This document shows, piece after piece, positions 4,131-60,110 of a stretch of 64,000 nt of DNA. How positions within the stretch are numbered: position 1 is the first letter of the stretch; each line of letters starts with the position of its first letter. This DNA is from an uncultured Chloroflexia bacterium. GTDB taxonomy: Bacteria; Chloroflexota; Limnocylindria; Limnocylindrales; CSP1-4. Below the pieces are notes generated by a model that saw only the letters and a program-made list of their open reading frames with translations, was not told where the DNA came from and made no database searches. A program made the position numbers and the translations under genes. The stretch spans positions 96,001 through 160,000 of the forward strand of contig CAVVNQ010000003.1 of the NCBI GenBank assembly GCA_963749705.1. Reading direction: 5' to 3'.

Positions 4131-4240
4131 CGCGGCATGGTGGCACACGCCGACACGAGGCGGAACGCAGGCATCGATCCGCCGCCGCGCATGGCCGGGG
4201 GCTGGTCATCGCCGCGCCCACGTGCGACGATCTTGGCTCG

Positions 4241-48222: not shown

Positions 48223-48327
48223 GCTCGTGCCGTGCTTCGCATGCACCAGCGCGGCACGCCCAGCGCCACCACTTCGACCGGGTGCCGACAAACCCCCTCG
48301 TCGGACCCGCTCGACACCGAGGACCAC

Positions 48328-48684
48328 GTGACCGGGATCTGGTACGTCGTCGGGTTCGCCTTCGCCGGCGTCTCGTTCGTCTTCCTGACGATCGGGCTGG
48401 CGTGGCTGATCTCGCATCGATCGCGAGGTGACCGACACAAGGGCTATCCGTACGAGTCGGGCATCGACACGTACGGCGACACCCATGCCCGCTTCGGCAT
48501 CTCGTTCTACATCTATGCGCTGCTGTTCGTCGCGTTCGACATCGAGGTCGTGTTCATCTACCTGTGGGCGCTGGTCTTCCGGGACCTGCTGCTGGGCGGC
48601 TTCGTGAGCATGCTGATCTTCGTGGGGATCCTGCTCGTCGGGCTCGCGTACGCCTGGCGCAAGGGGGTGCTCACATGGCGATGA
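48328..48684 (+). CDS. nuoA: NADH-quinone oxidoreductase subunit A
   Basis: PYESG, FYIYALLFVAFDIEVVFIYLWA, YAWRKGVLTW. Confidence 0.95.
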   Translation: MTGIWYVVGFAFAGVSFVFLTIGLAWLISHRSRGDRHKGYPYESGIDTYGDTHARFGISFYIYALLFVAFDIEVVFIYLWALVFRDLLLGGFVSMLIFVGILLVGLAYAWRKGVLTWR

Positions 48685-49436
48685 CCCCGCCCGGTCCGGA
48701 CGACCGGGAGCTCGGCGCCGGGCCGGACGGCGGAACCGAGACATCCGAGCCCACCGGCCAGCGTCCCTCATCGCTCGTCAGCGCCACGCCGCGCGACCTC
48801 ACCCAGCCGATCGTGGTGCCCAACACGTTGTGGACGTCGACCCGCCCCGAGGCGTACGGCGGCGGGCTGCCGACCGAGGACACGCACCTGCGCGAGCTGG
48901 TGGGATCGCCGCTCGTGACCAGGGACGATGCGCGCTGGGGCGCGCTCGACGTCATCCCCACGAAGGCCGACCTGATCCTGGACCTGATCCGGATGAACAG
49001 CCTGTGGCCGCTCCTGTCCGGGCTCGCGTGCTGCGCCTTCGAGATGATGTCGGCCGCGACGTCCAAGAACGACATGGACCGCTGGGGCATGTTCCCGTTC
49101 CGCGCCTCGCCCCGGCAGGCGGACGTGCTGATCGTTGCCGGGACCCTGACGACCAAGATGGCCGGCCCCCTGATCCGCCTGTGGGAGCAGATGCCGGAGC
49201 CCAAGTGGTGCGTGGCGATGGGCGACTGCACCTGCTCCGGTGGCCGCTACAAGCGCAGCTACTCGACCATCGAGGGGATCGACCGGGTGATGCCGGTCGA
49301 CGTCTACGTGCCCGGTTGCCCGCCCCGGCCGGAAGGCCTGATCTACGGGATGCTCAAGCTCGGGCAGCTGGTCAAGGAGCGCCGCGGGGAATGGCCGGAT
49401 CGCCCGATCGGACCCTCAGTTCCGGAGGACGTCTGA
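48675..49436 (+). CDS. nuoB: NADH-quinone oxidoreductase subunit B
   Basis: GLACCAFEM, RASPRQAD, QMPEPKW, MGDC, PGCPPRPE. Confidence 0.96.
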   Translation: MAMTPPGPDDRELGAGPDGGTETSEPTGQRPSSLVSATPRDLTQPIVVPNTLWTSTRPEAYGGGLPTEDTHLRELVGSPLVTRDDARWGALDVIPTKADLILDLIRMNSLWPLLSGLACCAFEMMSAATSKNDMDRWGMFPFRASPRQADVLIVAGTLTTKMAGPLIRLWEQMPEPKWCVAMGDCTCSGGRYKRSYSTIEGIDRVMPVDVYVPGCPPRPEGLIYGMLKLGQLVKERRGEWPDRPIGPSVPEDV

Positions 49437-49437
49437 C

Positions 49438-49986
49438 GTGGACCGGAGCCTCCGCAAGCGACTCGAGGCGCACTTTGGCGAGCGCCTGACGGGCCCGGTC
49501 CGCCAGCGCCACGACGAGACCGAGATCAGGATCCGCCCGGCCGACGTGACCCAGGTCATGCGAGACCTCCATGACGACCCGGCGTTCGGCTTCGAGATCC
49601 TCGCCGACCTCGCCGGCGTCGACACCGGAACGGACATGCAGGTCGTCTACCACCTGTGGTCGCCGCTCACGCCGGACTGGCTGCGGATCATCGCGGTCGG
49701 CATGCCGCGCGACGACCCGCGCGTCCCGTCCCTCACCGGCCTGTGGCCGGGCGCGGAGTGGATGGAGCGCGAGACGTACGACATGTTCGGGATCATCTTC
49801 GAGGGCAACCGGGACCTGCGGCGCATCTACATGCCACCCGACTACACGAGCTTTCCGCTGCGCAAGGACTTCTACCTTGCCGATGACGCGGCCCGGTCGC
49901 CCGGGGCCGGCGTCCGGCACATGGAGCAGACGCAGGTTCCCAACCAGGCGACGCCGTCGGTCGTCCGCCGGACCGTGAAGGCCTGA
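49438..49986 (+). CDS. nuoC: NADH-quinone oxidoreductase subunit C
   Basis: DLAGVD, VPSL, AEWMERETYDMFGI.FEG..DLRRI, PLRKDF. Confidence 0.95.
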   Translation: MDRSLRKRLEAHFGERLTGPVRQRHDETEIRIRPADVTQVMRDLHDDPAFGFEILADLAGVDTGTDMQVVYHLWSPLTPDWLRIIAVGMPRDDPRVPSLTGLWPGAEWMERETYDMFGIIFEGNRDLRRIYMPPDYTSFPLRKDFYLADDAARSPGAGVRHMEQTQVPNQATPSVVRRTVKA

Positions 49987-49987
49987 C

Positions 49988-51226
49988 ATGACCGCCCCCA
50001 CCACCCCCCGCCAGCACCCGTCCGCGGACGATCCGCGGATCATGCTCGACGACCAGATCGGCGCGTTCGAGACCATTCCGCCGTACCCGCCGCGCACGGA
50101 ACGAGAATCCGAGTTCTTCGCGCTGGGCGACGGCGAGATGTTCCTCAACATGGGACCTCACCACCCGTCCACGCACGGCGTGCTCCGGGTCGTGCTCAAG
50201 ATCAACGGCGAGCAGGTCGTGGACCTGGACCCGGTCCTGGGGTACCTCCACCGCGGCGTCGAGAAGCTGTGCGAGAACTCGGACTACCACCACATCATCA
50301 GCCAGGTCGACCCGCTCGAGTACGTGAGCTCGCTGTTCTGCGAGTGGGCCCCGGTCATGTCGTTCGAGAAGCTCCTGGACGTCCAGGTTCCGCGCCGGGC
50401 CGAGTACATCCGGGTCCTCACCGGCGAGCTCCTGCGCATCTCCAGCCACGTCCTGTTCCAGGGGTTCATGGCCCTGGACCTGGGCGGCCTGACGCCGATC
50501 CTGTACGGCTTCATCGAGCGCGACGAGATCGTGGAGATGCTGGCCGCGGTCACGGGCCAGCGGATGCTGTTCAACTACTTCCGCATCGGCGGGGTCAACG
50601 GCGACCTCAACCACGAGTTCATGTCCCGGCTGGGTGACTGGATGAGCCGGGCGCTGACCCAGGCGGAGGCGAACGCCGGGCTGCTCAACGAGAACGAGAT
50701 CTTCGTCCGCCGGATGCGGGACATCGGCAGGCTCGACCGCGAGACGGCGCTGCGGATGGGCGTCACCGGCCCCAACCTGCGCGCCGCGGGCGTCGCCTAT
50801 GACCTCCGCCGGGCCCACCCGTACTCCGTCTACCCGGAGCTCGAGTTCGACATCCCGACACGTGGCGCCGAGCGCGGTGGCGACAGCCTCGACCGCTACC
50901 TGCTGCGCCTCGACGAGATCAAGCAGAGCCTGCGGATCATCGACCAGTGCCTCCACAACATGCCCGATGGACCGGTCATGGCCAAGCTGCCGCGGCTGCT
51001 GCGGCCGCGCCCGGGCCGGGCCTGGGCCGCGGTCGAGGCCCCCCGCGGCCTGTTCGGGACGTACGCGGTCTCGGATGGCACCGACCAGCCGTTCCGGCTC
51101 AAGATCCACGACCCCTCGTTCGTCAACCTCCAGCTGGTCCCGCTGCTCGTGAAGGGCAACCTGATCGCCGACACGATGGCCGTGATGTCCTCGCTGGATC
51201 CGATCATGGGCGGCGTCGACAAGTGA
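49988..51226 (+). CDS. nuoD: NADH-quinone oxidoreductase subunit D
   Basis: NMGPHHPSTHGVLR, GYLHRGVEK, EAPRG, PSFVNLQ, SLDPIMGGVDK. Confidence 0.96.
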   Translation: MTAPTTPRQHPSADDPRIMLDDQIGAFETIPPYPPRTERESEFFALGDGEMFLNMGPHHPSTHGVLRVVLKINGEQVVDLDPVLGYLHRGVEKLCENSDYHHIISQVDPLEYVSSLFCEWAPVMSFEKLLDVQVPRRAEYIRVLTGELLRISSHVLFQGFMALDLGGLTPILYGFIERDEIVEMLAAVTGQRMLFNYFRIGGVNGDLNHEFMSRLGDWMSRALTQAEANAGLLNENEIFVRRMRDIGRLDRETALRMGVTGPNLRAAGVAYDLRRAHPYSVYPELEFDIPTRGAERGGDSLDRYLLRLDEIKQSLRIIDQCLHNMPDGPVMAKLPRLLRPRPGRAWAAVEAPRGLFGTYAVSDGTDQPFRLKIHDPSFVNLQLVPLLVKGNLIADTMAVMSSLDPIMGGVDK

Positions 51227-52575
51227 CCACGCTCAACCGCGCCTGGGGCAACCTGACCGTGACCGGCAAGGTCCTGCTGCCGCTGCTGTTCCTGGTGCTG
51301 GTCGCGGGTCCGATCCTGATCGTGCTGATCGCCCAGTTCGTGGCGCCGTTCCTGGTGGACCTGCTGGGCGCGAACCTGGACATCGTCCGGTTCGTCGTCG
51401 CGGTCACGGGCGTGCTGGTGTTCAGCATCCCGACCGCGTTCATCATCATCTACATGGAGCTCAAGGTCATCGCCCGGATGAACCTGCGGATCGGGCCCAA
51501 CCGGATCGGGCCGGCCGGAGCCGCGATGTCCGTGGTGCACGGGCTCAAGGTCCTCATGAAGGAGGACTTCACGCCGACCGGCGCCGACCACCTGGTGTTC
51601 ACGATCGCACCGGTGATCGTGTTCCTGACCGCCGTCATGACCTTCCTGGTCATCCCGTTCGGGCCCGGGCTCGTCGGGCAGGACTTCAACATCGGCCTGC
51701 TGTACCTGTTCGCGGTCGGTGGCATGAGCGTCGTCGGCCTGCTGATCGCCGGCTGGGCGAGCACCAACAAGTACTCGCTGCTGGGCGGCCTCCGTGCGGC
51801 GGCACAGGTCGTGAGCTACGAGATCCCGCTCACGCTGTCCGTCGTCGGCCTCATCCTGCTGGCGGGCACGATGAGCCTCAACCAGATCGCGGGGCAGCAG
51901 GCGGGCTGGTTCACGGACTGGTTCGTGTTCCGCCAGCCGCTGGGGGCGCTGATCTTCTTCATCGCGGCCACCGCCGAGGCGAACCGAACCCCGTTCGACC
52001 TGTCCGAAGCGGACTCGGAGATCGTGGCCGGCTTCGCGACCGAGTACTCGGGGATGCGGTTCGGGTTCCTTTTCTTCGCCGAGTACGTCAACGTGTTCAT
52101 CATCTCGGCGCTGCTGGTGACCCTGTTCTTCGGCGCCTGGAACGCGCCGTTCCCGTTCCCGCAGGTCGAGGTCGCCCTCGATCCGGGCACGCTGGGGATC
52201 GGCCTGCTGATCCTGATCGCCGCGGCCCCGGTGGTGCTGACCCTGGTGTTCGCCGCGCCGATCTACCTCATGCGCAGCTCCACCCCCGCCTGGCAGGCGC
52301 TGGTGCTCGGCTTCGTGATGTTCAACGTGGTCGCCATCGGCGCCGTGTTCGGCATCGCGTATGCCGGGCTCGACTGGATGGCCGGCCTCGTGTGGTTCAT
52401 GGGCAAGTCGTACGTGTTCGTGTTCGTGTTCGTGTGGATGCGCGCCACGTTCCCGCGCGTGCGCATCGACCAGCTGATGGGGTTCGCCTGGAAGTGGCTG
52501 CTGCCCGCGGCGCTGCTCAACCTGTTCGTGACGGCCGCGGCGATCGTGGTCGTCGACACGCTGAAGGCCGGCTGA
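51223..52575 (+). CDS. nuoH: NADH-quinone oxidoreductase subunit H (extended)
   Basis: GPNRIGP, KVLMKED, SLLGGLRAAAQVVSYE, EANRTPFDLSEADSE, EYSG, RATFPRVRIDQLM. Confidence 0.95.
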   Translation: MTTLNRAWGNLTVTGKVLLPLLFLVLVAGPILIVLIAQFVAPFLVDLLGANLDIVRFVVAVTGVLVFSIPTAFIIIYMELKVIARMNLRIGPNRIGPAGAAMSVVHGLKVLMKEDFTPTGADHLVFTIAPVIVFLTAVMTFLVIPFGPGLVGQDFNIGLLYLFAVGGMSVVGLLIAGWASTNKYSLLGGLRAAAQVVSYEIPLTLSVVGLILLAGTMSLNQIAGQQAGWFTDWFVFRQPLGALIFFIAATAEANRTPFDLSEADSEIVAGFATEYSGMRFGFLFFAEYVNVFIISALLVTLFFGAWNAPFPFPQVEVALDPGTLGIGLLILIAAAPVVLTLVFAAPIYLMRSSTPAWQALVLGFVMFNVVAIGAVFGIAYAGLDWMAGLVWFMGKSYVFVFVFVWMRATFPRVRIDQLMGFAWKWLLPAALLNLFVTAAAIVVVDTLKAG

Positions 52576-52579
52576 GCCG

Positions 52580-53245
52580 ATGAGCATGATCCCCGGCATG
52601 GGCCTGGTCCGCGGCATGAGCCTGACGCTGCGGCGGTTCTTCGCGCCCAAGGCGACCATCCAGTGGCCCGAGGTCCGCGCGGACGTCGCGCCCAAGTTCC
52701 GCGGCCGGCTGCAGCTCCTCTACGACGAGTACGGCACGCTCAAGTGCGAGACCTGCTTCCAGTGCGCCCAGGCCTGCCCGATCGAGTGCATCGACATGGG
52801 TGGCATCGACACCAAGGGCCGCTTCCACGTCCACTGGGGCGCACCCGAGACGTACGACGAGCGGCGCGAGGAATCGGCGATGCGACGCGCCGGGCGACCG
52901 GTTGCCGACGCCGCGTTCACCCGCTTCGAGGGGATCGACCTCGCCCCGCTCGACGCGATCCTCGAGGCGCACGACTACGACCCCAAGGACATGCTCGCGA
53001 TCCTCGAGGAGACACAGGCCGAGTACGGCTACCTGCCGGTCGCGTCGCTCAAGCACATCTCGCGGGTGACGGGCGCCTGGTACGCGATGATCTACGGCAC
53101 CGCGACGTACTACCGGCACCTGCGGTTCGAGCCGCCCGCGGTCGACGACGCGCCGGCGGCCGGCGAGGCGCACCTGGCCGCGGAGCAGGCCTACCGGTCG
53201 TCGCTCGGCGCCTCGCTGGGCTATGGCGACGGGGGCGCACGCTGA
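52580..53245 (+). CDS. Fusion: N-terminal half of NuoI + N-terminal helical domain of NuoE
   Basis: TIQWPE...PKFRGR...KCETCFQCAQACPIECI (one motif only), then AILEETQAEYGYLP...IYGTATYY..LRFEP. Confidence 0.85.
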   Translation: MSMIPGMGLVRGMSLTLRRFFAPKATIQWPEVRADVAPKFRGRLQLLYDEYGTLKCETCFQCAQACPIECIDMGGIDTKGRFHVHWGAPETYDERREESAMRRAGRPVADAAFTRFEGIDLAPLDAILEAHDYDPKDMLAILEETQAEYGYLPVASLKHISRVTGAWYAMIYGTATYYRHLRFEPPAVDDAPAAGEAHLAAEQAYRSSLGASLGYGDGGAR

Positions 53246-54573
53246 TGGCCCCGTTCCTCACCACGCCGCCGGACTGGCCCCGGATCCTCACCGGTCGCGC
53301 GGACGCGATCTCGGCGGATCCGTCGGACCTCGACGCCGCGGTCGCCGCCGGCGCGTTCGACGGCCTGAGGGTCGCGGTTCGCGACCTGGGCGCCACGGGA
53401 ACGATCGCCACGATCGCCGCGTCCGGACTGCGCGGCCGCGGCGGCGGCGGCTTCCCCACCGCCCGCAAGTGGCGCGCGGCCGCCGGACGTCCCGTGGACC
53501 AGCGATACGTGGTGGCCAACGGCTACGGCGCGGACCCCGCGGTCCGGACCGACGCGACGCTGATGGCCGCCGATCCGTGGGCGGTCATCGAGGGCCTGGT
53601 CATCGCGGCCTTCGCCACCGGCGCGACCGAGGCCATCATCGCGGTCCGCGCCGAGGATGCCGCCCTGATCACGCTGCTCGAGGGCGCCGCCGCGGCGGCG
53701 GAGGAGGCCGGCTTCGCCGGCGATGACGTGCTCGGCTCCCGCCATCGCGTGGGGATCACGATCCGTCCCGTCCAGGGCGCGTACATGCTGGGCGAGGAGA
53801 CGGTGCTGCTCAAGGCGCTCGAGGGACGGCGCGGCCAGCCCGAGCAGCGACCGCCGTACCCCACCGAGCGGGGCCTGTTCGGCAAGCCGACGGTGGTCAA
53901 CAACATCCAGACGCTGGCCGCGGTCCCGTGGATCGTGAAGCAGGGCGGACCGGCGTACGCCGCGATCGGCAGCCCGGCGAGCCCGGGCACCATGCTGGTC
54001 CAGCTCCGCGGCCCCCAGGGGGCGGGCATCGCGGAGGTCCCGCTCGGGACGCCGTTGCGCGACCTGGTCGAGCTCGCCGGCGGGACCGGCAAGCACACCC
54101 TGAAGGCCGTCCTGGTCGGCGGCCCGACGGGCGGGCTGCTGCCACCCGGGATGCTCGACACGCCGTTCGAGTTCGACGCGCTGCGTGCCGCCGGCGCCCA
54201 CATCGGCTCCGGCTCGGTGGTCGTGGCCGACGAGCGCGCCTGCATCGTGGACCTCGCGCGTCTCCTGACCCGGTTCTCCGCCGACGAGGCGTGCGGCAAG
54301 TCGATCCCCTGCCGGATCGGCCTCCGCCGCCTGTACGAGATCGGCGAACGCGTCGCATCCGGGCGGCCGCTGCCGACCGACGCCACGCTCATCGAGGACC
54401 TCGCCCACGACGTGGCCGCCTCCGGCCTGTGCGACCACGAGCGCCTGGCGACCCTGCCGTTCACCAGCGGGATGCGATACTTCCGCTCCGAGATCGATGA
54501 CCACATTCTCCGCAGCTCCTGCCCCGCCGGCGTGTGTCAGCCGATCGCGGTGGCGGCGGGCGCCGCGCACTAG
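53245..54573 (+). CDS. NuoF/HydB-like flavoprotein (degenerate motifs)
   Basis: SGLRGRGGGGFPT..KW, GAYMLGEET, PPYP...GLFGKPTVVNNIQT, GGPTGG, EACGKSIPCRIG, SCPAGVC. Confidence 0.88.
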   Translation: MAPFLTTPPDWPRILTGRADAISADPSDLDAAVAAGAFDGLRVAVRDLGATGTIATIAASGLRGRGGGGFPTARKWRAAAGRPVDQRYVVANGYGADPAVRTDATLMAADPWAVIEGLVIAAFATGATEAIIAVRAEDAALITLLEGAAAAAEEAGFAGDDVLGSRHRVGITIRPVQGAYMLGEETVLLKALEGRRGQPEQRPPYPTERGLFGKPTVVNNIQTLAAVPWIVKQGGPAYAAIGSPASPGTMLVQLRGPQGAGIAEVPLGTPLRDLVELAGGTGKHTLKAVLVGGPTGGLLPPGMLDTPFEFDALRAAGAHIGSGSVVVADERACIVDLARLLTRFSADEACGKSIPCRIGLRRLYEIGERVASGRPLPTDATLIEDLAHDVAASGLCDHERLATLPFTSGMRYFRSEIDDHILRSSCPAGVCQPIAVAAGAAH

Positions 54574-54584
54574 GACCCGAGCGA

Positions 54585-57233
54585 ATGGCCGACCTGATCA
54601 CGCGCCCCGACAGCCCCATCGAGCGGCGTGACGCCCGTCCCGATCAGCCCACGCTGCTGGACACCGTCACGGCCCGCGAGGACACGCTCGCCGAGCGCCT
54701 GATCACGACCCAGTCGCCGCAGCGGCCGCAGAGCACGCCGCGGATCCGGATCGAGGTCGATGGCCGGGTCGTCGAGGGGTTCGAGGGCCAGACGATCCTC
54801 GAGGTCTGCCGCGACAACGGGATCGAGATCCCGACCCTGTGCTACGAGCCCAAGCTGCCCGGCTTCGGCGCCTGCCGGATGTGCGTGGTCGAGGTCGAGG
54901 GCGAGGACACGCCGCCCATCTCCTGCTCGCGGGTCGCCGATGCGGGGATGGTGGTCCAGACGCAGACGGACGAGCTGCGGCGCCTGCGCAGGACCAACCT
55001 GGAGCTGATCTTCAGCGACCACAACGCCTACTGCCTGCCACCGTGCCAGAACAAGTGCCCCAGCCACATCGACATCCCGGGCTTCCTCAAGGCCAACGCC
55101 GAAGCCGACTGGCGCGAGTCCGCGCGGATCTTCAAGCGCACGATCCCCTTCCCGAGCGTGCTCGGCCGGGTGTGCCCGGCCCCGTGCGAGGAGCACTGCC
55201 GCCGCGACGAGGTGGACGAGGCGATCGCCATCCGCGACAGCCACCGGTACGCCGGCGACCAGGTGCTGCGGGCGATGCTCGACGAGGACGTCGATCCGCC
55301 GATCCCGTTCGAGCGCCAGGCGCCGTCCGGTCGCCGGGCCGCGGTCATCGGGTCCGGGCCGGCGGGCATGAGCGCCGCCTACTACCTCCTGCTCAACGGC
55401 CACGACGTCACCGTGTTCGAGCGCGATCCCGCGCCGGGCGGCATGCTGCGGTACGGGATCCCGCAGTACCGGCTGCCCAAGGTGGAGGTCCTCGAGGCCG
55501 AGTACGAGTCCGTGTGGCGGCTGGGCGGCAAGCTCGAGTGCAACCAGGCACTGGGCCGCGACTTCACGCTCGACGACCTCCAGAACCAGGGCTACGACGC
55601 GGTCGTCGTCGCGATCGGCTGCTACAACACCAACAAGCTGGGCATCCCCAACGAGGACGCCGACGGCGTCATCGACGGACTGGAGTATCTCCGCACCGCC
55701 ACGCTCGGGCTGCCCTACCCGGGGCATGCCGGGACCCGGGTGGTGGTCATCGGCGGCGGCTTCACGTCGATGGACTGCAGCCGCACCTCGATCCGCCAGG
55801 GCGCCAGCGACGTGACCCTGGTGTACCGCCGCGACATGAAGGACATGCCGGCGTCGGGCGAGGTCCACGAGGCGATCGAGGAAGGCGTCACGGCGATCTT
55901 CCAGGCCGGCCCGACGCGCGTGATCACGGATGACAAGACGGGCAAGGTCACCGGGGTCGAGTTCATCCGGATGGCGCTGGGCGAGCCCGATGCGTCCGGC
56001 CGGCGGCGCCCGGAGCCCGCACCGGGCACCGAGTTCACGGTCCCCTGCGATCGCGTCCTGCTCGCGATCGGGCAGGGTCCGGAGCTGGACTGGATCGGAC
56101 CCGGGTCCGAGGGACCGGTCGCGACGCGACAGCATCGGCTGGCCTCGGATGCGGTGACCTTCGAGACCGCGCGCCCGGGCGTGTTCGGCACCGGCGACGT
56201 GCGGATCGGCGCGGCGACGGTCGTCCAGGCGATCGCGGAGGGCCGCCGCGCGGCGTACGCCGTGGACGCCTACCTCAAGGGCCAGGACCTCGCCGCGATC
56301 CGCACCCGCCAGACCCTCGCCGAGCCGCAGCCCGAGTTCCTCTCGATCGTGCCGTTCACGGGCGAGGTCAAGGAGCCGCGCTACCGCCTCAAGGCGCTCG
56401 AGGCCGAGGCGCGCAACGACAGCTACGTCGAGTACGAGATCCCGTACACCCGGGACGAGGCGGTCGCGGAGTCGACGCGCTGCCTCCAGTGCACCTGCGA
56501 GGCGATCGGGTTCTGCGACCTGCGTCGGCTGGGCATCGAGTACGGGACGACGCTCAGGACGCTCGAGCCCGCGTTCCACCAGGGCGCCGGCTACCGGAGC
56601 GTGACCGAGAACCGGTTCACCGGGCGCAACCACGACTACGTCCGCGACGACAGCCACGCGTTCATCCTGCGCGAGCCCGCCCGGTGCATCGACTGCGGCC
56701 GATGCGCCAACGTGTGCGCCGAGGTCGTCGGTGCCGCGTGCTACGACTTCATGCGGATCGGCTTCGACACACTGGTCACGACGCCGCTCGACATGAGCCT
56801 CAACGACACGCCCTGCGTGTCCTGCGGCCGGTGCGCCGAGACGTGCCCGACCGGAGCCCTGATGCCCAAGCCACGGGTGCTCCAGAAGTACGAGGTCGAC
56901 GAGAGCCGCTGCATCCTGTGCGGGATCTGCGTCGACGCCTGCCCCTACGATGCCGTGCGCGACAGCGACCAGTTCGAGCTCAGCCACACGTCGCGCGTGG
57001 AGCCGATGATCGACCTCCTCGCGCTGGCCGCGGTCGAGCGCGAGACCGAGATGAGCTATATCCGCCGCGAGCGTGACTGGGCGGAGCGAGCCCGGGCCGA
57101 GGGCCGTGTCCTCGACTCGTCCCGGCTGCTCCCCGTCCTGCCCGCCTCGTTTGCGAGCGGCAATGGAAACGGGAACGGCCACGGAAGCGGACCTGCGTCC
57201 GCGTCCGCGACGGCCCATGCCCACGATCACTGA
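54585..57233 (+). CDS. NuoG-like Fe-S / GltD-like FAD oxidoreductase fused to C-terminal half of NuoI
   Basis: IPTLC..GACRMC..SC 2Fe-2S; GSGPAG, GGMLRYGIP.YRLP, GGGFTSMDC, YRR; CIDCGRC, CVSCGRCAETCP; then YEVDESRCILCGICVDACPYDA..FEL. Confidence 0.88.
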   Translation: MADLITRPDSPIERRDARPDQPTLLDTVTAREDTLAERLITTQSPQRPQSTPRIRIEVDGRVVEGFEGQTILEVCRDNGIEIPTLCYEPKLPGFGACRMCVVEVEGEDTPPISCSRVADAGMVVQTQTDELRRLRRTNLELIFSDHNAYCLPPCQNKCPSHIDIPGFLKANAEADWRESARIFKRTIPFPSVLGRVCPAPCEEHCRRDEVDEAIAIRDSHRYAGDQVLRAMLDEDVDPPIPFERQAPSGRRAAVIGSGPAGMSAAYYLLLNGHDVTVFERDPAPGGMLRYGIPQYRLPKVEVLEAEYESVWRLGGKLECNQALGRDFTLDDLQNQGYDAVVVAIGCYNTNKLGIPNEDADGVIDGLEYLRTATLGLPYPGHAGTRVVVIGGGFTSMDCSRTSIRQGASDVTLVYRRDMKDMPASGEVHEAIEEGVTAIFQAGPTRVITDDKTGKVTGVEFIRMALGEPDASGRRRPEPAPGTEFTVPCDRVLLAIGQGPELDWIGPGSEGPVATRQHRLASDAVTFETARPGVFGTGDVRIGAATVVQAIAEGRRAAYAVDAYLKGQDLAAIRTRQTLAEPQPEFLSIVPFTGEVKEPRYRLKALEAEARNDSYVEYEIPYTRDEAVAESTRCLQCTCEAIGFCDLRRLGIEYGTTLRTLEPAFHQGAGYRSVTENRFTGRNHDYVRDDSHAFILREPARCIDCGRCANVCAEVVGAACYDFMRIGFDTLVTTPLDMSLNDTPCVSCGRCAETCPTGALMPKPRVLQKYEVDESRCILCGICVDACPYDAVRDSDQFELSHTSRVEPMIDLLALAAVERETEMSYIRRERDWAERARAEGRVLDSSRLLPVLPASFASGNGNGNGHGSGPASASATAHAHDH

Positions 57234-57242
57234 GAGGGACGC

Positions 57243-57779
57243 GTGACGCTGCCGGATACGATCCCGCTGATCGGGATCGGGTGGGATGACCTGCTGTTCC
57301 TGGCCCTGGCCGGGGTGATGGTCGGTGCCGCGCTGCTGGTCGTCACGATGCGCGACATCATCCGCTGCGGCCTGGCCATGATCGTGTGCTTCGGCGCCCT
57401 GGCGGGGCTGTACGTGCTTGCCGGGGCCCCGTTCGTCGCCGCCGCGCAGGTGCTGGTGTACATCGGCGCGATCAGCGTCCTGGTCCTGTTCGCGATCATG
57501 CTCACGCAGACGAAGGCGGGCCCGAGGGCGCTGGTGTTCCAGACGCAGGCGGTCCCCGCGGCGATCGCGGCGGTGATCCTCGCGATCCTGATCGCGGTCA
57601 CGGTCACGGCGACCGACTGGCCCCAGTCGGCGGGACGGATCTGGACGCGAACCGCCGACGTCGCGGCGACCCTGTTCTCCTCGTTCGTGCTCCCGTTCGA
57701 GGTGGTGAGCGTGCTGCTGCTCGCGGCCGTGATCGGCGGGGTGTTCATCGCCAAGCGGGAGCGGGGAGGGCCTGACTGA
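57243..57779 (+). CDS. nuoJ: NADH-quinone oxidoreductase subunit J
   Basis: AAAQVLVYIGAISVLVLFAIML, VLPFEVVSVLLLAAVIG. Confidence 0.95.
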   Translation: MTLPDTIPLIGIGWDDLLFLALAGVMVGAALLVVTMRDIIRCGLAMIVCFGALAGLYVLAGAPFVAAAQVLVYIGAISVLVLFAIMLTQTKAGPRALVFQTQAVPAAIAAVILAILIAVTVTATDWPQSAGRIWTRTADVAATLFSSFVLPFEVVSVLLLAAVIGGVFIAKRERGGPD

Positions 57780-58111
57780 TGCTGGCCGCCCTGCACAACC
57801 TGTCCCAGACCCTGGATGCGTATCTCGTGCTCGCGGGGCTGCTGTTCGCGATCGGTGCGTTCGGCTTCCTGGCCCGGCGCAACGCGATCAGCATGCTGAT
57901 GTCGATCGAGCTGATGCTCAACGGCGTCAACCTCGCGATCATCGCGTTCGGCGCGTTCAGCCCCTCGCTCAAGACCAGCGCCTCGGTGATCGCGCTGATC
58001 GTGATGGCCGCCGCCGCCGCCGAGGCGACCGTCGGCCTCGCCATCGTGATCGCGATCTACCGCAACCGGAAGACGCCGCTCGTCGACGAGTACGACGACA
58101 TGCGGCAGTAG
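57779..58111 (+). CDS. nuoK: NADH-quinone oxidoreductase subunit K
   Basis: RRNAISMLMSIELMLN, AAAEATVGLAIV. Confidence 0.96.
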   Translation: MLAALHNLSQTLDAYLVLAGLLFAIGAFGFLARRNAISMLMSIELMLNGVNLAIIAFGAFSPSLKTSASVIALIVMAAAAAEATVGLAIVIAIYRNRKTPLVDEYDDMRQ

Positions 58112-58121
58112 GCGCCGATCG

Positions 58122-60110
58122 ATGTACGAGACCCTGATCCCGCTGATCGTGCTGCTGCCGATCGCCGGCTTCGCGTTCACGGCGCTGTTCGGTCGCCGGC
58201 TCCAGCTCACATTCGGACGCTGGGCGTCGGAGATCGTGCCGGTGGGCGGCGTGATCGCGGTGTGGGTGATCGCGATGATCGTGGTCGCCGGGGCGCTCGG
58301 CCACAACGAGGCGTTCGGCGAGCACGGCCTCGACGTCAAGCTCTGGACGTGGATCCCGGCCGGGGCGTTCAGCGTGGACCTCGGCTTCCACGTGGACACG
58401 CTGACGGCCGCGCTGCTGATCGTGGTCACCACGATCGGCATGCTCGTCCACGTGTACTCGATCGGGTACATGGCGCACGACGACGGGACGTGGCGCTTCT
58501 TCGCCTACCTCAACCTGTTCATGTTCTCGATGCTGCTGCTGGTGCTCGCCAACAGCTGGCTGCTGGTGTTCGCGGGCTGGGAGCTGGTCGGGCTGTGCAG
58601 CTACCTGCTGATCGGCTTCTGGTACCGCAAGCGCTCGGCATCGCTGGCGGCCAAGAAGGCGTTCATCGTCAACCGCGTGGGCGACGTCGGGTTCGCGCTG
58701 GGGATCATGGCGATCTTCGTCAACACCGGCACGCTCAACATCCAGGACTCGCTGGCGAAGCTGATCGAGGCGCCGGCCGGGACGCTGACGATCCCGCTCT
58801 CGATCATCGCCCTGCTCGTGTTCGCGGGCGCGATGGGGAAGAGCGCGCAGTTCCCGCTCCACGTGTGGCTCCCGGACGCGATGGAAGGTCCGACCCCCGT
58901 CTCGGCCCTGATCCACGCGGCGACCATGGTCAACGCCGGCGTCTACCTCATCGCCCGCGCCAACCCGCTGTTCGCCCACGCCCAGGACGCGATGGTGGTG
59001 GTGGCCGCGATCGGCATCTTCACGGCGATCCTGGCCGCCTCGATCGCGTTCACCCAGACCGACATCAAGCGCGTGCTCGCGTACTCCACGCTGAGCCAGC
59101 TGGGGTACATGTTCGCGGCCCTCGGCGTCGGCGCGTTCGTGCCCGCGATCTTCCACCTGATGACCCACGGGTTCTTCAAGGGCCTGCTGTTCCTCGGTTC
59201 GGGCTCGGTGATCCACGCCGTCCACGAGGAGCAGGACATGAACCGCATGGGCGCCCTGTGGCGGAAGATCCCGATCACGCACTGGACGATGTTCGTGGCC
59301 ACGTTCGCCATCGCGGGCATCCCGCCGCTGGCCGGGTTCTTCTCCAAGGACGAGATCCTGGGCGAGTCGTTCAAGTTCGGCTTCACCTGGGTGTGGCTGA
59401 TCGGCGTCGTCGTCGCGGTCATGACGGCGTTCTACATGTGGCGCCTGATGGGCAAGACGTTCTACGGCGAGAGCCGCGTCGACCCGCACGTCGAGCCCAA
59501 AATCCACGAGTCCGCGTGGCAGATGACGCTGCCCCTGGTCCTGCTCGCGATCCCGGCCGCGCTGCTGGGCATTGCGCTGACGTGGGGCGGGCCGCCGCTG
59601 TTCTCCGGCACGGGCCTGCTGGCCGGCTGGCTGGAGCCCGTGTTCGCCGACTCGGAGCACCTGCTCCACGGCAACCCGGAGGCGTTCGCGCTGGCGGGCG
59701 TCGACGGGATCCTGATCCTGATCAGCGTGGCCGCGGCCACGCTCGGCCTGGTCGCCGGCCTGTGGCTGTTCGGTGCCTTCCGCGCCCGTGGCAACCGCGA
59801 GCTGGTGGACCGGATCGCCGGCGCCAACGGCGCCACGCGGTTCCTGTATCGGGCCACCCTCAACAAGTGGTGGTTCGACGAGCTCAACGACCTGCTGTTC
59901 ATCCGGATCGGCGGGCGGGTGGCGGCGGCCATGTGGTGGTTCGACCGGACGATCGTCGATGGCACAGTCAACGGCGTCGGCGCGCTCACGCGTGACGCGG
60001 GCGGGGGCCTGCGCCGGATCCAGACCGGACACGTCCAGAACTACGCGCTGGGGATCGCGATCGGCCTGCTCGTGATGGCAGGCTCGTTCCTCGTGATCGT
60101 GAGCCGCTGA
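58122..60110 (+). CDS. nuoL: NADH-quinone oxidoreductase subunit L
   Basis: HVYSIGYM, WELVGLCSYLLIGFW, GKSAQFPLHVWLPDAMEGPTPVSALIHAATMV, QTGHVQNY. Confidence 0.97.
   Translation: MYETLIPLIVLLPIAGFAFTALFGRRLQLTFGRWASEIVPVGGVIAVWVIAMIVVAGALGHNEAFGEHGLDVKLWTWIPAGAFSVDLGFHVDTLTAALLIVVTTIGMLVHVYSIGYMAHDDGTWRFFAYLNLFMFSMLLLVLANSWLLVFAGWELVGLCSYLLIGFWYRKRSASLAAKKAFIVNRVGDVGFALGIMAIFVNTGTLNIQDSLAKLIEAPAGTLTIPLSIIALLVFAGAMGKSAQFPLHVWLPDAMEGPTPVSALIHAATMVNAGVYLIARANPLFAHAQDAMVVVAAIGIFTAILAASIAFTQTDIKRVLAYSTLSQLGYMFAALGVGAFVPAIFHLMTHGFFKGLLFLGSGSVIHAVHEEQDMNRMGALWRKIPITHWTMFVATFAIAGIPPLAGFFSKDEILGESFKFGFTWVWLIGVVVAVMTAFYMWRLMGKTFYGESRVDPHVEPKIHESAWQMTLPLVLLAIPAALLGIALTWGGPPLFSGTGLLAGWLEPVFADSEHLLHGNPEAFALAGVDGILILISVAAATLGLVAGLWLFGAFRARGNRELVDRIAGANGATRFLYRATLNKWWFDELNDLLFIRIGGRVAAAMWWFDRTIVDGTVNGVGALTRDAGGGLRRIQTGHVQNYALGIAIGLLVMAGSFLVIVSR

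What the first reader, a model, noticed from the sequence alone, without database searches (positions are those of the whole stretch)
54585..56885. NuoG replaced by a StnC/GltD-like flavoprotein: candidate NADPH:quinone proton-pumping complex
Seen: a NuoG/HydA-type 2Fe-2S domain and the start of the His-ligated cluster motif (HNAYC). A full GltD/NfnB-like unit is then inserted (about 55040-56480): CQNKCP, GRVCPAPCEEHC, FAD loop GSGPAG, second Rossmann GGGFTSMDC and a YRR motif. The NuoG-like sequence resumes afterwards (RCLQCTC..FCDL, CIDCGRC, CVSCGRCAETCP). There is no molybdopterin-like NuoG C-domain and no H-cluster. Known: this nested layout resembles StnC of the Sporomusa-type transhydrogenase and NsoC-like proteins, and YRR marks NADP(H) preference in GltD-family enzymes. 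Inference: electrons enter via FAD/NADPH rather than FMN/NADH, or the complex runs in reverse to make NADPH.
Basis: partly seen in the sequence, partly recalled or inferred. Interest (0 to 1): 0.82.

Follow-up and report, generated by a model that had tools for sequence, protein, structure and literature searches.

The report
NADPH module inserted into complex I
In this Chloroflexota bacterium the respiratory complex I operon has, instead of the usual NADH-input genes, a cut-down NADPH-using transhydrogenase module sitting inside a split nuoI gene, which points to a proton-pumping enzyme that can probably burn NADPH as well as NADH.

Summary
Window 54585-57233 (+) encodes an 882-aa protein. 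It has a NuoG/HydA-type 2Fe-2S domain, a nested GltD/NfnB-type FAD/NADPH unit, then His-type and 2x[4Fe-4S] motifs. It is colinear with the NADPH-oxidising subunits StnC/NfnA of solved transhydrogenases (E 1e-159).

- The protein ends in the C-terminal half of NuoI.
- The N-terminal half of NuoI sits on the upstream gene (52580-53245), fused to a cluster-less NuoE/StnA-like helical domain.
- The NuoF-like gene between them is closer to transhydrogenase/hydrogenase B subunits than to complex I NuoF.

So a stripped Stn/NfnABC-type three-gene module lies inside nuoI of an 11-gene nuoABCDH[I]JKLMN operon. All 64 related Chloroflexota (Limnocylindria-type) loci that hold the three genes show the same layout. 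A sister protein family with the same tail occurs in Thermoleophilia MAGs.

Best reading: the two NuoI halves refold and staple the module to the quinone module, giving an NADPH- and probably also NADH-fed quinone reductase. NADPH use, attachment and pumping are inferred, not shown. No description was found in print. Interest 0.75; new variant of a known kind.

The parts
46872..48167 (+). PF02636 (Methyltransf_28) methyltransferase directly upstream of nuoA. By recall this is the NDUFAF7/MidA family. It is a conserved neighbour; whether it belongs to the system is not shown.
   Evidence: Pfam 3.5e-46. Found upstream on the same strand in 44 of 45 related loci of at least 20 kb.
48232..48684 (+). 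nuoA (start codon uncertain)
   Evidence: NCBIfam NuoA models, 1.8e-27
48672..49436 (+). nuoB. The start is uncertain: the ORF is open from 48564, and 48672 is the first ATG (MAMTPPG). It carries the CC...C...CP ligands of cluster N2.
   Evidence: TIGR01957 207.7 bits, above its cut-off; sequence
49438..49986 (+). nuoC
   Evidence: PF00329 7.7e-39
49988..51226 (+). nuoD, with the HHPSTHGVLR and GYLH motifs
   Evidence: PF00346 9.9e-84; NuoD models; sequence
51229..52575 (+). nuoH (start uncertain)
   Evidence: PF00146 8.9e-106; NF004741 321.7 bits, above its cut-off
52580..53245 (+). Gene 'InE' (P0002, 221 aa). Residues 1-100 are the N-terminal half of NuoI, including CETCFQCAQACP (C56, C59, C62, C66). 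Residues about 116-187 are the N-terminal helical domain of NuoE/StnA/NfnC. It has no thioredoxin-like 2Fe-2S domain and no Cys after C70.
   Evidence: TIGR01971 NuoI profile positions 1-65 of 121 match residues 12-77. PF01257 positions 2-63 of 145 match residues 125-186. PDB: TYKY/NuoI chains match residues 9-73; NfnC 9bov_C matches residues 116-186. Sequence.
53245..54573 (+). Gene F' (442 aa), a NuoF/StnB-like FMN/NAD(H) core without the extra domains of bifurcating B subunits. Unusual features: N-G-Y94-G-A-D97-P in place of the usual NADE(S/G)EPG, and C350-G-K-(S/T)353-I-P-C356...C396-D-H398 in place of a four-Cys N3/B1 motif. Its ATG overlaps the InE stop (TGATG).
   Evidence: Best PDB matches are NfnB 9n5u_B (345 bits), HydB, Csac NfnB and StnB (334-338 bits). 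The best complex I NuoF scores 251 bits. Motif conservation; DNA.
54585..57233 (+). Gene 'GI' (882 aa), the finding itself: a StnC/NfnA-like subunit ending in the NuoI C-terminal half
54741..55034 (+). GI residues 53-150: NuoG/HydA-type 2Fe-2S domain (C86, C97, C100, C114) and the start of the His-type cluster motif (H146, C150)
   Evidence: PF13510 7.8e-21; TIGR01973 NuoG profile positions 1-98; ligands invariant in 29 sequences
55035..56339 (+). GI residues 151-585: nested GltD/NfnB-type unit. It holds the two-cluster Cys motifs, the FAD loop GSGPAG, the second Rossmann motif GGGFTSMDC, YRR at 414-416, and His220 at the place of StnC Lys170.
   Evidence: PF14691, PF07992; NfnB 4ylf_B E 1.3e-75
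56475..56864 (+). GI residues 631-760: the NuoG/HydA-type sequence resumes. RCLQCTCEAIGFC, then CIDCGRCANVC and CVSCGRCAETCP (2x[4Fe-4S], matching StnC clusters C3 and C2).
   Evidence: In register with StnC and NfnA. This is the most constrained part, dN/dS 0.083.
56865..57029 (+). GI residues 761-815: C-terminal half of NuoI (KYEVDESRCILCGICVDACPYDAV...FELSHTSR; C776, C779, C782, C786). It begins exactly where the Fdh-like domain begins in StnC/NfnA.
   Evidence: TIGR01971 profile positions 71-114 of 121. When the tail is scanned alone, its seven best NCBIfam hits are all NuoI models.
57030..57230 (+). GI residues 816-882: C-terminal extension. It is part conserved (RETE..YIR.ERDW..EGR..LLPVLPAS) and ends in a variable Gly/Asn/His-rich stretch. 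Role unknown.
   Evidence: dN/dS 0.36
57243..57779 (+). nuoJ
   Evidence: PF00499 1.8e-32
57779..58111 (+). nuoK
   Evidence: PF00420 2.5e-25
58122..60110 (+). nuoL
   Evidence: TIGR01974 715 bits
60110..61645 (+). nuoM
   Evidence: TIGR01972 593 bits
61656..63119 (+). nuoN
   Evidence: TIGR01770 409 bits

Best explanation
The finding is the electron-input subunit of an unusual respiratory complex I.

Shown by sequence and comparison: a three-gene module derived from a soluble NADPH-dependent Stn/NfnABC-type (Bfu family) transhydrogenase lies inside the nuoI gene of an 11-gene nuoABCDHIJKLMN operon. The module is stripped of everything those enzymes need for electron bifurcation. It lacks the 2Fe-2S domain of the E/C subunit, the N- and C-terminal cluster domains of the F/B subunit, and the Fdh-like domain of the G/A subunit. 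NuoI is cut between its two Cys motifs. Its N-half is the N-terminus of the first module gene, and its C-half is the C-terminus of the last one.

Inferred:
- The two NuoI halves refold into one 2x[4Fe-4S] ferredoxin fold (clusters N6a/N6b) on the NuoB/D/H surface. This anchors the module at both ends.
- NADPH reduces the FAD of the GltD-type unit.
- Electrons pass through its two 4Fe-4S clusters, the His-type cluster and the 2Fe-2S cluster to the 2x[4Fe-4S] pair. In Stn the second cluster of that pair, C2, is a dead-end branch. Here it would lead on to N6a/N6b, N2 and quinone, driving the NuoH/L/M/N proton pump.
- The NuoF-like subunit probably still feeds NADH electrons into the same chain, making the enzyme a dual NAD(P)H:quinone oxidoreductase.
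For: Layout:
- The gene order is nuoA-B-C-D-H, InE, F', GI, nuoJ-K-L-M-N, with gaps of 4, -1, 11 and 9 nt around the module.
- There is no separate nuoI, and no other NuoI-like piece in the 64 kb (tblastn, E above 0.7).

Complementary halves:
- InE residues 12-77 match NuoI profile positions 1-65 of 121. GI matches positions 71-114.
- Together the halves supply 4 + 4 Cys.
- The N-half match covers the NuoI-specific N-terminus and not only the ferredoxin motif.
- The tail scanned alone hits seven NuoI models first.

Origin of the module:
- GI scores 537 bits against NfnA, against 54-83 bits for complex I NuoG chains.
- F' scores 345-334 bits against NfnB/HydB/StnB, against at most 251 bits for complex I NuoF.
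- The E part of InE matches NfnC/StnA/HydC and Fdh gamma chains. No complex I NuoE chain reaches E 0.01.

Conservation:
- 485 relatives were found in species-representative genomes, and the best 80 were fetched. 77 of these 80 are labelled Chloroflexota.
- All 64 of 64 loci that hold InE, F' and GI have them as three ORFs in this order between nuoH and nuoJ.
- All 27 cluster ligands of GI are invariant in 29 sequences, including a 42%-identical Thermoleophilia-type one.
- Median dN/dS values: 0.08-0.21 for the GI domains, 0.21 for the NuoI N-half, 0.34 for F', 0.39 for NuoH and 0.42 for NuoJ.

NADPH site:
- YRR aligns with YRR of the three NADPH enzymes StnC, Csac NfnA and T. sibiricus NfnA and of E. 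coli GltD. NAD-dependent PreT has ARE there.
- YRR is present in 21 of 21 Limnocylindria-type, 37 of 41 Thermoleophilia-type and 84 of 84 StnC/NfnA-like sequences.

NADH site (Csac NfnB contacts taken from passages of PMC11829005):
- G156 corresponds to G67, present in 56 of 56.
- K164 corresponds to K75, present in 54 of 56.
- E274 corresponds to E185, present in 54 of 56.
- F159 corresponds to position 70, which reads F/Y/H in 52 of 56.
- F294 corresponds to position 205, which reads Y/H/W in 54 of 56.

Quinone module: the N2 ligands in NuoB and the HHPSTHG and GYLH motifs in NuoD are present.

Stn electron path and its dead-end C1/C2 branch: PMC10482914, sections 7-8.
Against: - Nothing biochemical or structural was obtained. 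The complex prediction of the two NuoI halves never ran (see Tried and rejected). The one structure model that finished was too poor to use (mean pLDDT 52.6).
- I could not see the rest of any of these genomes, so an intact nuoI or a canonical nuoEFG elsewhere is not excluded.
- The FMN pocket of F' is altered at positions that are conserved in relatives. Tyr94 is invariant where relatives have Asp, position 95 is Gly where they have Glu, and position 219 varies between N, Q and H. The second Cys of its cluster motif is Ser/Thr in 56 of 56. F' may therefore not bind FMN or NADH in the usual way.
- If both nucleotide sites are active, the peripheral arm would also work as an uncoupled NADPH:NAD+ transhydrogenase, which a cell might not tolerate.
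- A third protein in the same clade (P0270) carries a NuoI-C-like motif followed by PorB. Such a half-motif is therefore not by itself proof of docking to complex I.
- The gene context of the Thermoleophilia-type relatives is unknown.
Confidence: 0.6

Rival explanations
1. One reading: an NADPH-only quinone reductase. F' and the NuoE remnant are structural leftovers that no longer bind FMN or NADH, and all electrons enter through the GltD-type FAD.
For: - The FMN pocket is altered: Y94 for Asp, G95 for Glu, and variable position 219.
- The N3/B1 motif lacks its second Cys in 56 of 56 sequences.
- N1a is absent.
- F' and the NuoE part evolve faster than GI: 71% and 75% mean identity against 86%, and dN/dS of 0.34-0.39 against 0.08-0.21.
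- A single input would avoid an uncoupled transhydrogenase short circuit (inference).
Against: - The glycine loop, GEET, K75, E185 and the mostly aromatic residues at both adenine-stacking positions are kept.
- C350, C356, C396 and H398 are invariant in 56 of 56, as expected for a retained cluster with one changed ligand.
- The dN/dS of F' (0.34) is no higher than that of NuoH (0.39) or NuoJ (0.42).
Confidence: 0.2
2. The complex mainly runs in reverse. The proton-motive force drives electrons from quinol uphill to the FAD, making NADPH (and/or NADH) for biosynthesis.
For: Complex I is reversible in principle, and the Stn/Nfn FAD site works in both directions (PMC10482914, assay described in the methods passage).
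Against: - Nothing in the window points to a lithotrophic lifestyle that would need reverse electron flow. The neighbours are housekeeping genes, amino-acid transporters and signalling genes.
- Direction cannot be read from sequence.
Confidence: 0.1
3. The three module genes make a soluble Stn-like NADPH:NAD+ oxidoreductase that merely shares the operon. The membrane arm takes electrons from another donor, such as ferredoxin, as other 11-subunit complexes are thought to do.
For: 11-subunit complexes without an N-module are widespread, also in Chloroflexi (PMC3144371, passages). Operon sharing alone does not prove binding.
Against: Without the two halves carried by InE and GI, the membrane complex would have no NuoI at all in this operon. 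The halves are among the most conserved parts. The Fdh-like domain, which mediates tetramer formation and whose deletion prevented purification of active Stn (PMC10482914, section 8), is missing.
Confidence: 0.06
4. The layout is an assembly error, a frameshift artefact or a decaying pseudogene cluster.
For: Many singleton 'fusion' proteins of this region in public sets are frameshifted translations from error-prone assemblies.
Against: - The same three intact ORFs are found in 64 of 64 independent loci from many studies.
- Third-position GC is 0.94-0.96 in these frames.
- Selection is purifying throughout.
Confidence: 0.01

Closest known systems
StnABC (Sporomusa ovata, PDB 8oh5) and NfnABC (Caldicellulosiruptor saccharolyticus 9bov; Thermococcus sibiricus 9n5u): soluble, electron-bifurcating, NADPH-dependent Bfu-family transhydrogenases
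   Same: - Same three-gene order: E-like, F-like, then G/GltD-like.
- GI is colinear with StnC/NfnA over residues 54-786, with all cluster motifs, the FAD loop, R296 (StnC R239) and YRR in register.
- F' and the E part of InE also find these enzymes' B and C subunits as their best solved relatives.
   Different: - There is no Fdh-like domain and so no cluster C1. The NuoI C-half sits in its place.
- The B subunit lacks the parts that align to residues 1-112 and beyond about 527 of Csac NfnB, which in bifurcating enzymes hold clusters B2-B4.
- The C subunit lacks its 2Fe-2S domain.
- The Lys that ligates the FAD-proximal cluster is His. That Lys is called strictly conserved in StnC (PMC10482914, section 9). 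It is Lys in 83 of 84 StnC/NfnA-like representatives, and His in 21 of 21 plus 41 of 41 members of the tailed clade.
- The module is encoded inside a nuo operon, so it is probably membrane-bound and not bifurcating.
Canonical 14-subunit complex I (NuoA-N / Nqo1-14)
   Same: - NuoA, B, C, D, H, J, K, L, M and N are present, some above the curated cut-offs: NuoB, NuoH, NuoK, NuoL, NuoM and NuoN.
- The N2 ligands and the NuoD quinone-site motifs are present.
- A NuoF-type flavoprotein and a NuoG-type 2Fe-2S domain are present.
   Different: - The input genes lie between nuoH and nuoJ, inside nuoI, not between nuoD and nuoH.
- NuoI is in two pieces on two polypeptides.
- N1a and the NuoG C-terminal domain are absent.
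- There is an extra FAD/NADPH unit with two more clusters.
- The E', F' and G' sequences are nearer to Bfu enzymes than to NuoEFG.
Nuo-Bfu, a predicted 14-subunit complex I with a bifurcating BfuABC input module (Geobacter, Deferribacteres, Planctomycetes, Nitrospirae; Schut et al. 2022, PMC9304861, passages seen)
   Same: A Bfu-related module in the middle of a nuo gene cluster, proposed to replace NuoEFG.
   Different: From the passages seen:
- Nuo-Bfu is described as a 14-subunit (A-N) cluster with a full bifurcating BfuBC core.
- It is proposed to oxidise NADH and ferredoxin.
- No GltD/NADPH unit and no split NuoI are mentioned.
- That survey required a ferredoxin-type domain in BfuB, which F' lacks.
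Mbx-like operons of Thermotoga and proteobacteria, in which the NuoI position is taken by a GltD-related flavoprotein (Degli Esposti 2015, PMC4758237, passage seen)
   Same: A GltD-type NAD(P)(H) site attached at the NuoI position of a complex I-like membrane enzyme. This is a precedent for the idea.
   Different: In those operons NuoI is said to be substituted. The complex is Mbx/Mrp-like and ferredoxin-oxidising, with NAD(P)+ as acceptor. Here NuoI is kept but split, the flavoprotein is a StnC-type nested protein with F- and E-like partners, and the membrane arm is Nuo-type. I made no sequence comparison with those proteins.
11-subunit complex I-like enzymes with other input devices (NDH-1 of cyanobacteria, Fpo with FpoF; Moparthi and Hagerhall 2011, PMC3144371, passages seen)
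   Same: An A-B-C-D-H-I-J-K-L-M-N backbone to which a lineage-specific input module is added.
   Different: The module here is NAD(P)H-linked, and it is recruited by gene fusion into NuoI rather than as a separate docking subunit.

Membership tests
StnC / NfnA (NADPH-oxidising A subunit of Nfn-type Bfu enzymes) | Nested layout: 2Fe-2S domain, GltD-type FAD/NADPH unit, then His-type and 2x[4Fe-4S] motifs, colinear with the solved members | tested here: met
   9bov_A E 9.5e-160 over residues 54-786; 8oh5_C E 2.1e-139 over residues 53-788; motifs in register
StnC / NfnA (NADPH-oxidising A subunit of Nfn-type Bfu enzymes) | [quoted passage not shown] | tested here: not met
   His220 in the window (mapping). 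It is His in 21 of 21 Limnocylindria-type and 41 of 41 Thermoleophilia-type sequences, and Lys in 83 of 84 StnC/NfnA-like representatives.
StnC / NfnA (NADPH-oxidising A subunit of Nfn-type Bfu enzymes) | C-terminal Fdh-like (molybdopterin-fold) domain with cluster C1, needed for tetramer formation | tested here: not met
   The protein ends 96 residues after the last Cys motif. There is no molybdopterin Pfam match. The alignment to StnC/NfnA ends at residue 786-788.
StnC / NfnA (NADPH-oxidising A subunit of Nfn-type Bfu enzymes) | NADPH-type second Rossmann fold with YRR | tested here: met
   That YRR determines NADP(H) preference is supported here only by the contrast GltD (YRR) against PreT (ARE). 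It is otherwise recalled.
Bfu family (electron-bifurcating BfuBC core) | B subunit with clusters B2-B5 and C subunit with 2Fe-2S cluster C1 (PMC11829005 and PMC9304861, passages) | tested here: not met
   F' aligns only to residues 113-526 of Csac NfnB, with no N- or C-terminal cluster domains. InE has no Cys in its NuoE-like part and only profile positions 2-63 of 145 of PF01257. The CPAGVC motif that aligns with the CP..VC of NfnB/HydB is kept in 50 of 56.
Respiratory complex I (NuoA-N) | Membrane arm NuoA, H, J, K, L, M, N and quinone module NuoB, C, D with N2 ligands | tested here: met
Respiratory complex I (NuoA-N) | One NuoI polypeptide with two CxxCxxCxxxCP motifs | tested here: not met
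   Profile positions 1-65 are on InE and 71-114 on GI. There is no intact nuoI in the window. The rest of the genome was not seen.
Respiratory complex I (NuoA-N) | Canonical NuoE (with N1a), NuoF (four-Cys N3) and NuoG (with C-terminal domain) encoded between nuoD and nuoH | tested here: not met
Respiratory complex I (NuoA-N) | NAD(P)H:quinone oxidoreduction coupled to proton translocation | not testable with these tools
   needs enzyme assays
GltD / NfnB small-subunit family | Stand-alone protein of about 450-480 aa, starting with the RCLxC motif and followed by CP | tested here: not met
   The unit is nested. The RCLQC motif lies after the flavin domain, at residues 632-636, not before it.

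The most novel reading that the evidence does not exclude
Complex I acquired an NAD(P)H-oxidising input module a second, independent time. A whole soluble transhydrogenase operon landed inside nuoI, and the split ferredoxin subunit now works as a two-ended clamp. The result would be the first proton-pumping NADPH:quinone oxidoreductase, with NADH as a second substrate. It would serve as the main respiratory entry point in Limnocylindria-type Chloroflexota, and a sister form may exist in Thermoleophilia. Both lineages are represented here by many metagenome-assembled genomes.
Probability: 0.4. Interest if true: 0.9.

Novelty: new variant of a known kind. Interest (0 to 1): 0.75.

Why it matters
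**Energetics.** By textbook knowledge, respiratory chains take in NADH, and NADPH reaches them only through transhydrogenases. A complex I with its own NADPH site would couple the anabolic nucleotide pool directly to the proton-motive force. That would change how energy and redox budgets are drawn for these organisms.

**Evolution.** The locus shows a concrete route by which a membrane complex recruits a new catalytic module. An operon is inserted into a gene, and the two halves of the interrupted subunit act as the attachment points. It also shows an origin of an N-module that is independent of NuoEFG. This bears on the long debate over how the 14-subunit enzyme arose from an 11-subunit ancestor.

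**Annotation.** The proteins are currently labelled 'FAD-dependent oxidoreductase', 'formate dehydrogenase major subunit' or 'hypothetical'. Pipelines that score complex I by the presence of NuoE, F, G and I will therefore probably call it incomplete in these genomes (inference).

**Mechanism.** The fixed Lys-to-His change at the FAD-proximal cluster and the reuse of the 'dead-end' C2 branch of Stn give two directly testable ideas.

Tried and rejected
**1. Complex prediction of the two NuoI halves.** The job was GI 625-850 plus InE 1-115, as alignments A3 and A2. I handed it in unchanged many times. It was never accepted: the queue was full, and searches gave 'no usable answer'. There is no result of any kind.

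**2. Structure prediction.**
- The model of GI from the shallow alignment A3 had mean pLDDT 52.6 and pTM 0.37, with residues 577-832 below 50. It was unusable, so no fold search was made.
- A second job with the deeper alignment A5 (146 rows) was interrupted on the server.

**3. Gene context of the Thermoleophilia-type relatives.** This was not obtainable.
- The atlas search with InE returned only Chloroflexota clusters at high score.

**4. Naturally fused forms of InE.** I searched with 'longer' lengths and got 71 hits, all but one of them singletons. The nine I read carry Arg-rich out-of-frame stretches. They are frameshifted translations, not real fusions.

**5. Apparent GI-NuoJ fusions in L007, L021 and L067.** These were an artefact of my ORF extension. 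A stop codon follows the GI tail in all three.

**6. Swapped order of the L, M and N hits in 8 short loci.** I take this as cross-matching of paralogous subunits on truncated contigs. I did not examine it further.

**7. Careful IQ-TREE search.** It was unfinished after 465 s. Only quick and FastTree trees are reported.

**8. Literature.**
- Searches for a prior description found none.
- Passages of PMC5736913 and PMC7784846 proved irrelevant.
Those of PMC9304861 (clade tables) and PMC10482914 (StnC alignments) might list members of this family.

**9. Readings considered and rejected.** A circularly permuted stand-alone GltD, an [FeFe]-hydrogenase remnant (no H-cluster domain) and a formate dehydrogenase (no molybdopterin domain).

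Full report
**What is at the coordinates**

The window is about 70% G+C. It carries on the + strand a tightly packed operon, identified by Pfam and NCBIfam:

| Gene | Coordinates |
|---|---|
| nuoA | 48232-48684 |
| nuoB | to 49436 |
| nuoC | 49438-49986 |
| nuoD | 49988-51226 |
| nuoH | to 52575 |
| three unusual genes | 52580-57233 |
| nuoJ | 57243-57779 |
| nuoK | 57779-58111 |
| nuoL | 58122-60110 |
| nuoM | 60110-61645 |
| nuoN | 61656-63119 |

The finding is the third unusual gene, 54585-57233, which encodes 882 aa and which I call GI. Pfam sees a 2Fe-2S Fer2_4 domain, the two-cluster Fer4_20 domain, Pyr_redox_2 and a 4Fe-4S dicluster. It sees no molybdopterin or hydrogenase catalytic domain.

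**What GI resembles**

Against all solved structures, the three best matches are the NADPH-oxidising subunits of the soluble transhydrogenases:
- Caldicellulosiruptor NfnA, 9bov_A: E 9.5e-160, residues 54-786.
- Thermococcus sibiricus NfnA, 9n5u_A: E 2.1e-142.
- Sporomusa ovata StnC, 8oh5_C: E 2.1e-139.

The printed alignments put every Cys/His motif, the FAD loop, the second Rossmann motif and YRR in register. Stand-alone NfnB and GltD chains match only residues about 168-587, and NuoG/HydA chains match only the flanks.

According to the Stn structure paper (PMC10482914; I read sections 7, 8 and 9), electrons run from NADPH/FAD through clusters C7, C6, C5, C4 and C3 to the FMN subunit. Clusters C2 and C1, the latter in the Fdh-like domain, form a branch with no known function.

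No nuoI gene lies between nuoH and nuoJ. Instead:
- The first unusual gene (52580-53245, 221 aa, 'InE') begins with the N-terminal half of NuoI. NCBIfam NuoI profile positions 1-65 of 121 match residues 12-77.
- PDB TYKY/NuoI chains align to residues 9-73, including the NuoI-specific N-terminus and the first motif, CETCFQCAQACP.
- GI ends with the other half. Profile positions 71-114 match KYEVDESRCILCGICVDACPYDAV...FELSHTSR.
- When this tail is scanned alone against 18950 NCBIfam models, its seven best hits are all NuoI models, ahead of HycF, NdhI and generic ferredoxins.

The two matches are complementary in profile coordinates, and together they provide the eight Cys of a 2x[4Fe-4S] fold. 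No other NuoI-like piece exists in the 64 kb. In GI the NuoI half starts exactly where the Fdh-like domain starts in StnC/NfnA.

**The other two module genes**

After the NuoI half and a linker, InE continues as the N-terminal helical domain of NuoE/StnA/NfnC. The best match is NfnC 9bov_C, residues 116-186. It stops before the thioredoxin-like 2Fe-2S domain: only profile positions 2-63 of 145 of PF01257 are matched, and there are no Cys.

The middle gene F' (53245-54573, 442 aa) is a NuoF-type flavoprotein core.
- Its best solved relatives are B subunits of bifurcating enzymes: NfnB 345 bits, and HydB, Csac NfnB and StnB at 334-338 bits. Complex I NuoF reaches at most 251 bits.
- It aligns only to their central part (residues 113-526 of Csac NfnB), so it lacks the terminal cluster domains.

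Passages of PMC11829005 and PMC9304861 state that non-bifurcating homologues lack clusters B2-B5. Here the C-subunit cluster is also gone, so bifurcation of the Bfu type is not expected.

The simplest history is inference, but it fits the E-F-G gene order and the sequence affinities. A complete stnABC/nfnCBA-type operon entered nuoI of an 11-gene nuoABCDHIJKLMN cluster, fused in frame at both ends, and was then trimmed.

**Is it real and conserved?**

- The word-index search found 7745 proteins at E 1e-20 or better among 8000 candidates. The best 120 are 82-91% identical and 859-929 aa long. Where named, they come from Chloroflexota/Limnocylindrales MAGs and are annotated only generically.
- In species-representative genomes, 598 stretches matched the search patterns and 485 encode a relative. 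I received the best 80 loci, of which 77 are labelled Chloroflexota.
- Wherever the contigs are long enough, the gene order is the same as in the window.
- In 64 of 64 loci that contain all three genes, they are three separate ORFs between nuoH and nuoJ.

For the conservation counts I kept only near-complete, stop-free copies: 55 loci for InE and for F', 53 for GI, 49 for NuoH and 66 for NuoJ, plus the window in each case.

| Measure | GI | InE | F' |
|---|---|---|---|
| Mean identity to the window residue | 86% | 75% | 71% |

Median pairwise dN/dS was computed on 150 random pairs among the 30 rows common to all five genes:

| Part | dN/dS |
|---|---|
| NuoG-type FeS part of GI | 0.08 |
| NuoI C-half | 0.16 |
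| GltD unit | 0.20 |
| 2Fe-2S domain | 0.21 |
| NuoI N-half | 0.21 |
| F' | 0.34 |
| NuoE part | 0.39 |
| NuoH | 0.39 |
| NuoJ | 0.42 |

The absolute values are inflated by the extreme codon bias. The comparison still shows that no part is decaying.

**A second lineage and a diagnostic residue**

In the library of 50%-identity representatives, the next full-length relatives are only 36-46% identical, and most are 1000-1270 aa StnC/NfnA-like proteins with Fdh-like tails. One of them, P0139 (816 aa), has the NuoI-C tail.
- Its family has a best 120 of 60-88% identity and 808-880 aa, and is named Thermoleophilia or Actinobacteria where named.
- All 120 of 120 carry the third Cys motif and tail.
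- 105 of 120 have YRR at the motif position.

For the trees, the core was residues 54-757. From the 150 representatives I left out 16 shorter than 640 aa, and then 7 rows with under 85% coverage. All tailed proteins form one clade:
- FastTree, 130 rows: support 95.
- IQ-TREE quick, 43 rows, LG+G4: SH-aLRT 90.
- IQ-TREE quick with the mixture model: SH-aLRT 94 (the careful search did not finish).

The clade also holds P0270. This StnC-like protein has a NuoI-C-like motif followed by a PorB domain.

At the position of StnC Lys170, the unusual ligand of the FAD-proximal cluster that the Stn paper calls strictly conserved, the tailed clade has His in 21 of 21 plus 41 of 41 sequences. By contrast, 83 of 84 StnC/NfnA-like representatives have Lys. 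The protein therefore works like a StnC but fails two defining features of that family: Lys170 and the Fdh-like domain.

**Which nucleotide?**

YRR (residues 414-416) aligns with YRR of the three experimentally NADPH-dependent enzymes and of E. coli GltD. E. coli PreT, annotated as NAD-dependent, has ARE there. YRR is kept in 21 of 21 Limnocylindria-type, 37 of 41 Thermoleophilia-type and 84 of 84 StnC/NfnA-like sequences. This supports NADP(H) at the FAD site, but it is not a measurement.

F' keeps most of the residues that the Csac NfnABC paper names as NADH contacts. The glycine loop, K75 and E185 are kept, and positions 70 and 205 are aromatic in most sequences. On the other hand, F' has an invariant Tyr where relatives have the Asp of NADE, and its cluster motif reads C-G-K-(S/T)-I-P-C...C-D-H in 56 of 56 sequences. 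I therefore rate a working but modified FMN/NAD(H) site as more likely than a dead one, without certainty.

**Mechanism proposed**

Shown: the gene layout, the domain content, the origin of the parts and their conservation.

Inferred:
- The NuoI halves refold and clamp the module to the quinone module.
- Electrons go from NADPH through FAD, the two GltD-unit clusters, the His-type cluster, the 2Fe-2S cluster and the C3/C2 pair to N6a/N6b, N2 and quinone.
- NADH enters through F'.
- The N2 ligands and the NuoD motifs are in place.

The order of clusters in canonical complex I and the role of NuoI there are recalled textbook knowledge.

**Comparison with what is in print**

I found no paper describing a split NuoI, a StnC/NfnA-type subunit in a nuo operon, or complex I of Limnocylindria. 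Related ideas do exist:
- Predicted Nuo-Bfu complexes with a full bifurcating module (PMC9304861, passages).
- Mbx-like operons in which a GltD-related flavoprotein takes the place of NuoI (PMC4758237, passage).
- The view that an 11-subunit enzyme is ancestral (PMC3144371, passages).
- The remark by Spero et al. that many Chloroflexi genomes seem to lack only NuoG (PMC4453560, passage).

**What stayed open**

- The complex prediction never ran, and neither structure job gave a usable model.
- The rest of these genomes and the context of the Thermoleophilia genes could not be seen.
- All functional statements await biochemistry.

Noticed in passing
window 46872-48167 (+): A PF02636 (Methyltransf_28) methyltransferase sits directly upstream of nuoA on the same strand. 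The same holds in 44 of 45 related loci of at least 20 kb. By recall this is the family of NDUFAF7/MidA, the mitochondrial complex I assembly factor that methylates an Arg of the NuoD homologue. The window's NuoD has the matching HGVLR motif.
   Followed up: partly
protein P0270 (1049 aa; no locus): A relative in the same clade fuses the StnC-like core, a NuoI-C-like half motif and a complete PorB (TPP) domain of 2-oxoacid:ferredoxin oxidoreductase (PorB model 367 bits). This suggests an NADPH-linked 2-oxoacid oxidoreductase that also uses a 'half-ferredoxin' junction.
   Followed up: partly
window 54585-57233, residue His220 of GI (codon at 55242-55244): The Lys that ligates the FAD-proximal 4Fe-4S cluster in StnC is His in all 62 tailed-clade sequences examined, and Lys in 83 of 84 StnC/NfnA-like representatives. 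This is a clade-defining change that may retune the cluster potential.
   Followed up: yes
window 53245-54573 (F'), residues 350-398: The N3/B1-type cluster motif has Ser or Thr in place of its second Cys in 56 of 56 sequences. A His two residues after the fourth Cys (LCDHER) is invariant. This points to a cluster with one non-Cys ligand, or to a 3Fe cluster.
   Followed up: partly
proteins P0393-P0463: Dozens of singleton 'NuoH-InE' or 'InE-F' fusion proteins occur in public sets. The nine I read contain Arg-rich out-of-frame stretches, so they are frameshifted translations from error-prone assemblies of these high-GC genomes. This is a caution for anyone mining fusions.
   Followed up: yes
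window 57030-57230 (GI C-terminal tail) and 48564-48930 (N-terminal extension of the nuoB ORF): GI ends in a partly conserved extension (RETE..YIR.ERDW..LLPVLPAS), followed by a variable Gly/Asn/His-rich stretch. The nuoB reading frame has a long low-complexity N-terminal extension before the conserved part. The roles of both are unknown.
   Followed up: no
window 3-740 (+), 2340-4148 (-), 5476-7014 (-): A cluster of signalling genes lies at the left end of the window: an adenylate/guanylate cyclase domain protein (cut by the window edge), a HisKA_3 histidine kinase and a GGDEF-HD(GYP-like) protein. They are unrelated to the finding.
   Followed up: no
window 24535-26592 and 26629-28725 (+): Two adjacent paralogous amino-acid permease genes, unusually long at about 690 aa (PF13520 covers only the first 490 residues or so). 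The C-terminal 200 residues are unassigned.
   Followed up: no
loci L067, L070, L075: Three of the 80 loci are labelled Acidobacteriota, Thermomicrobiales and Saccharimonadales, yet their GI is 80-87% identical to the Chloroflexota ones. These are probably binning or labelling errors rather than transfers.
   Followed up: no
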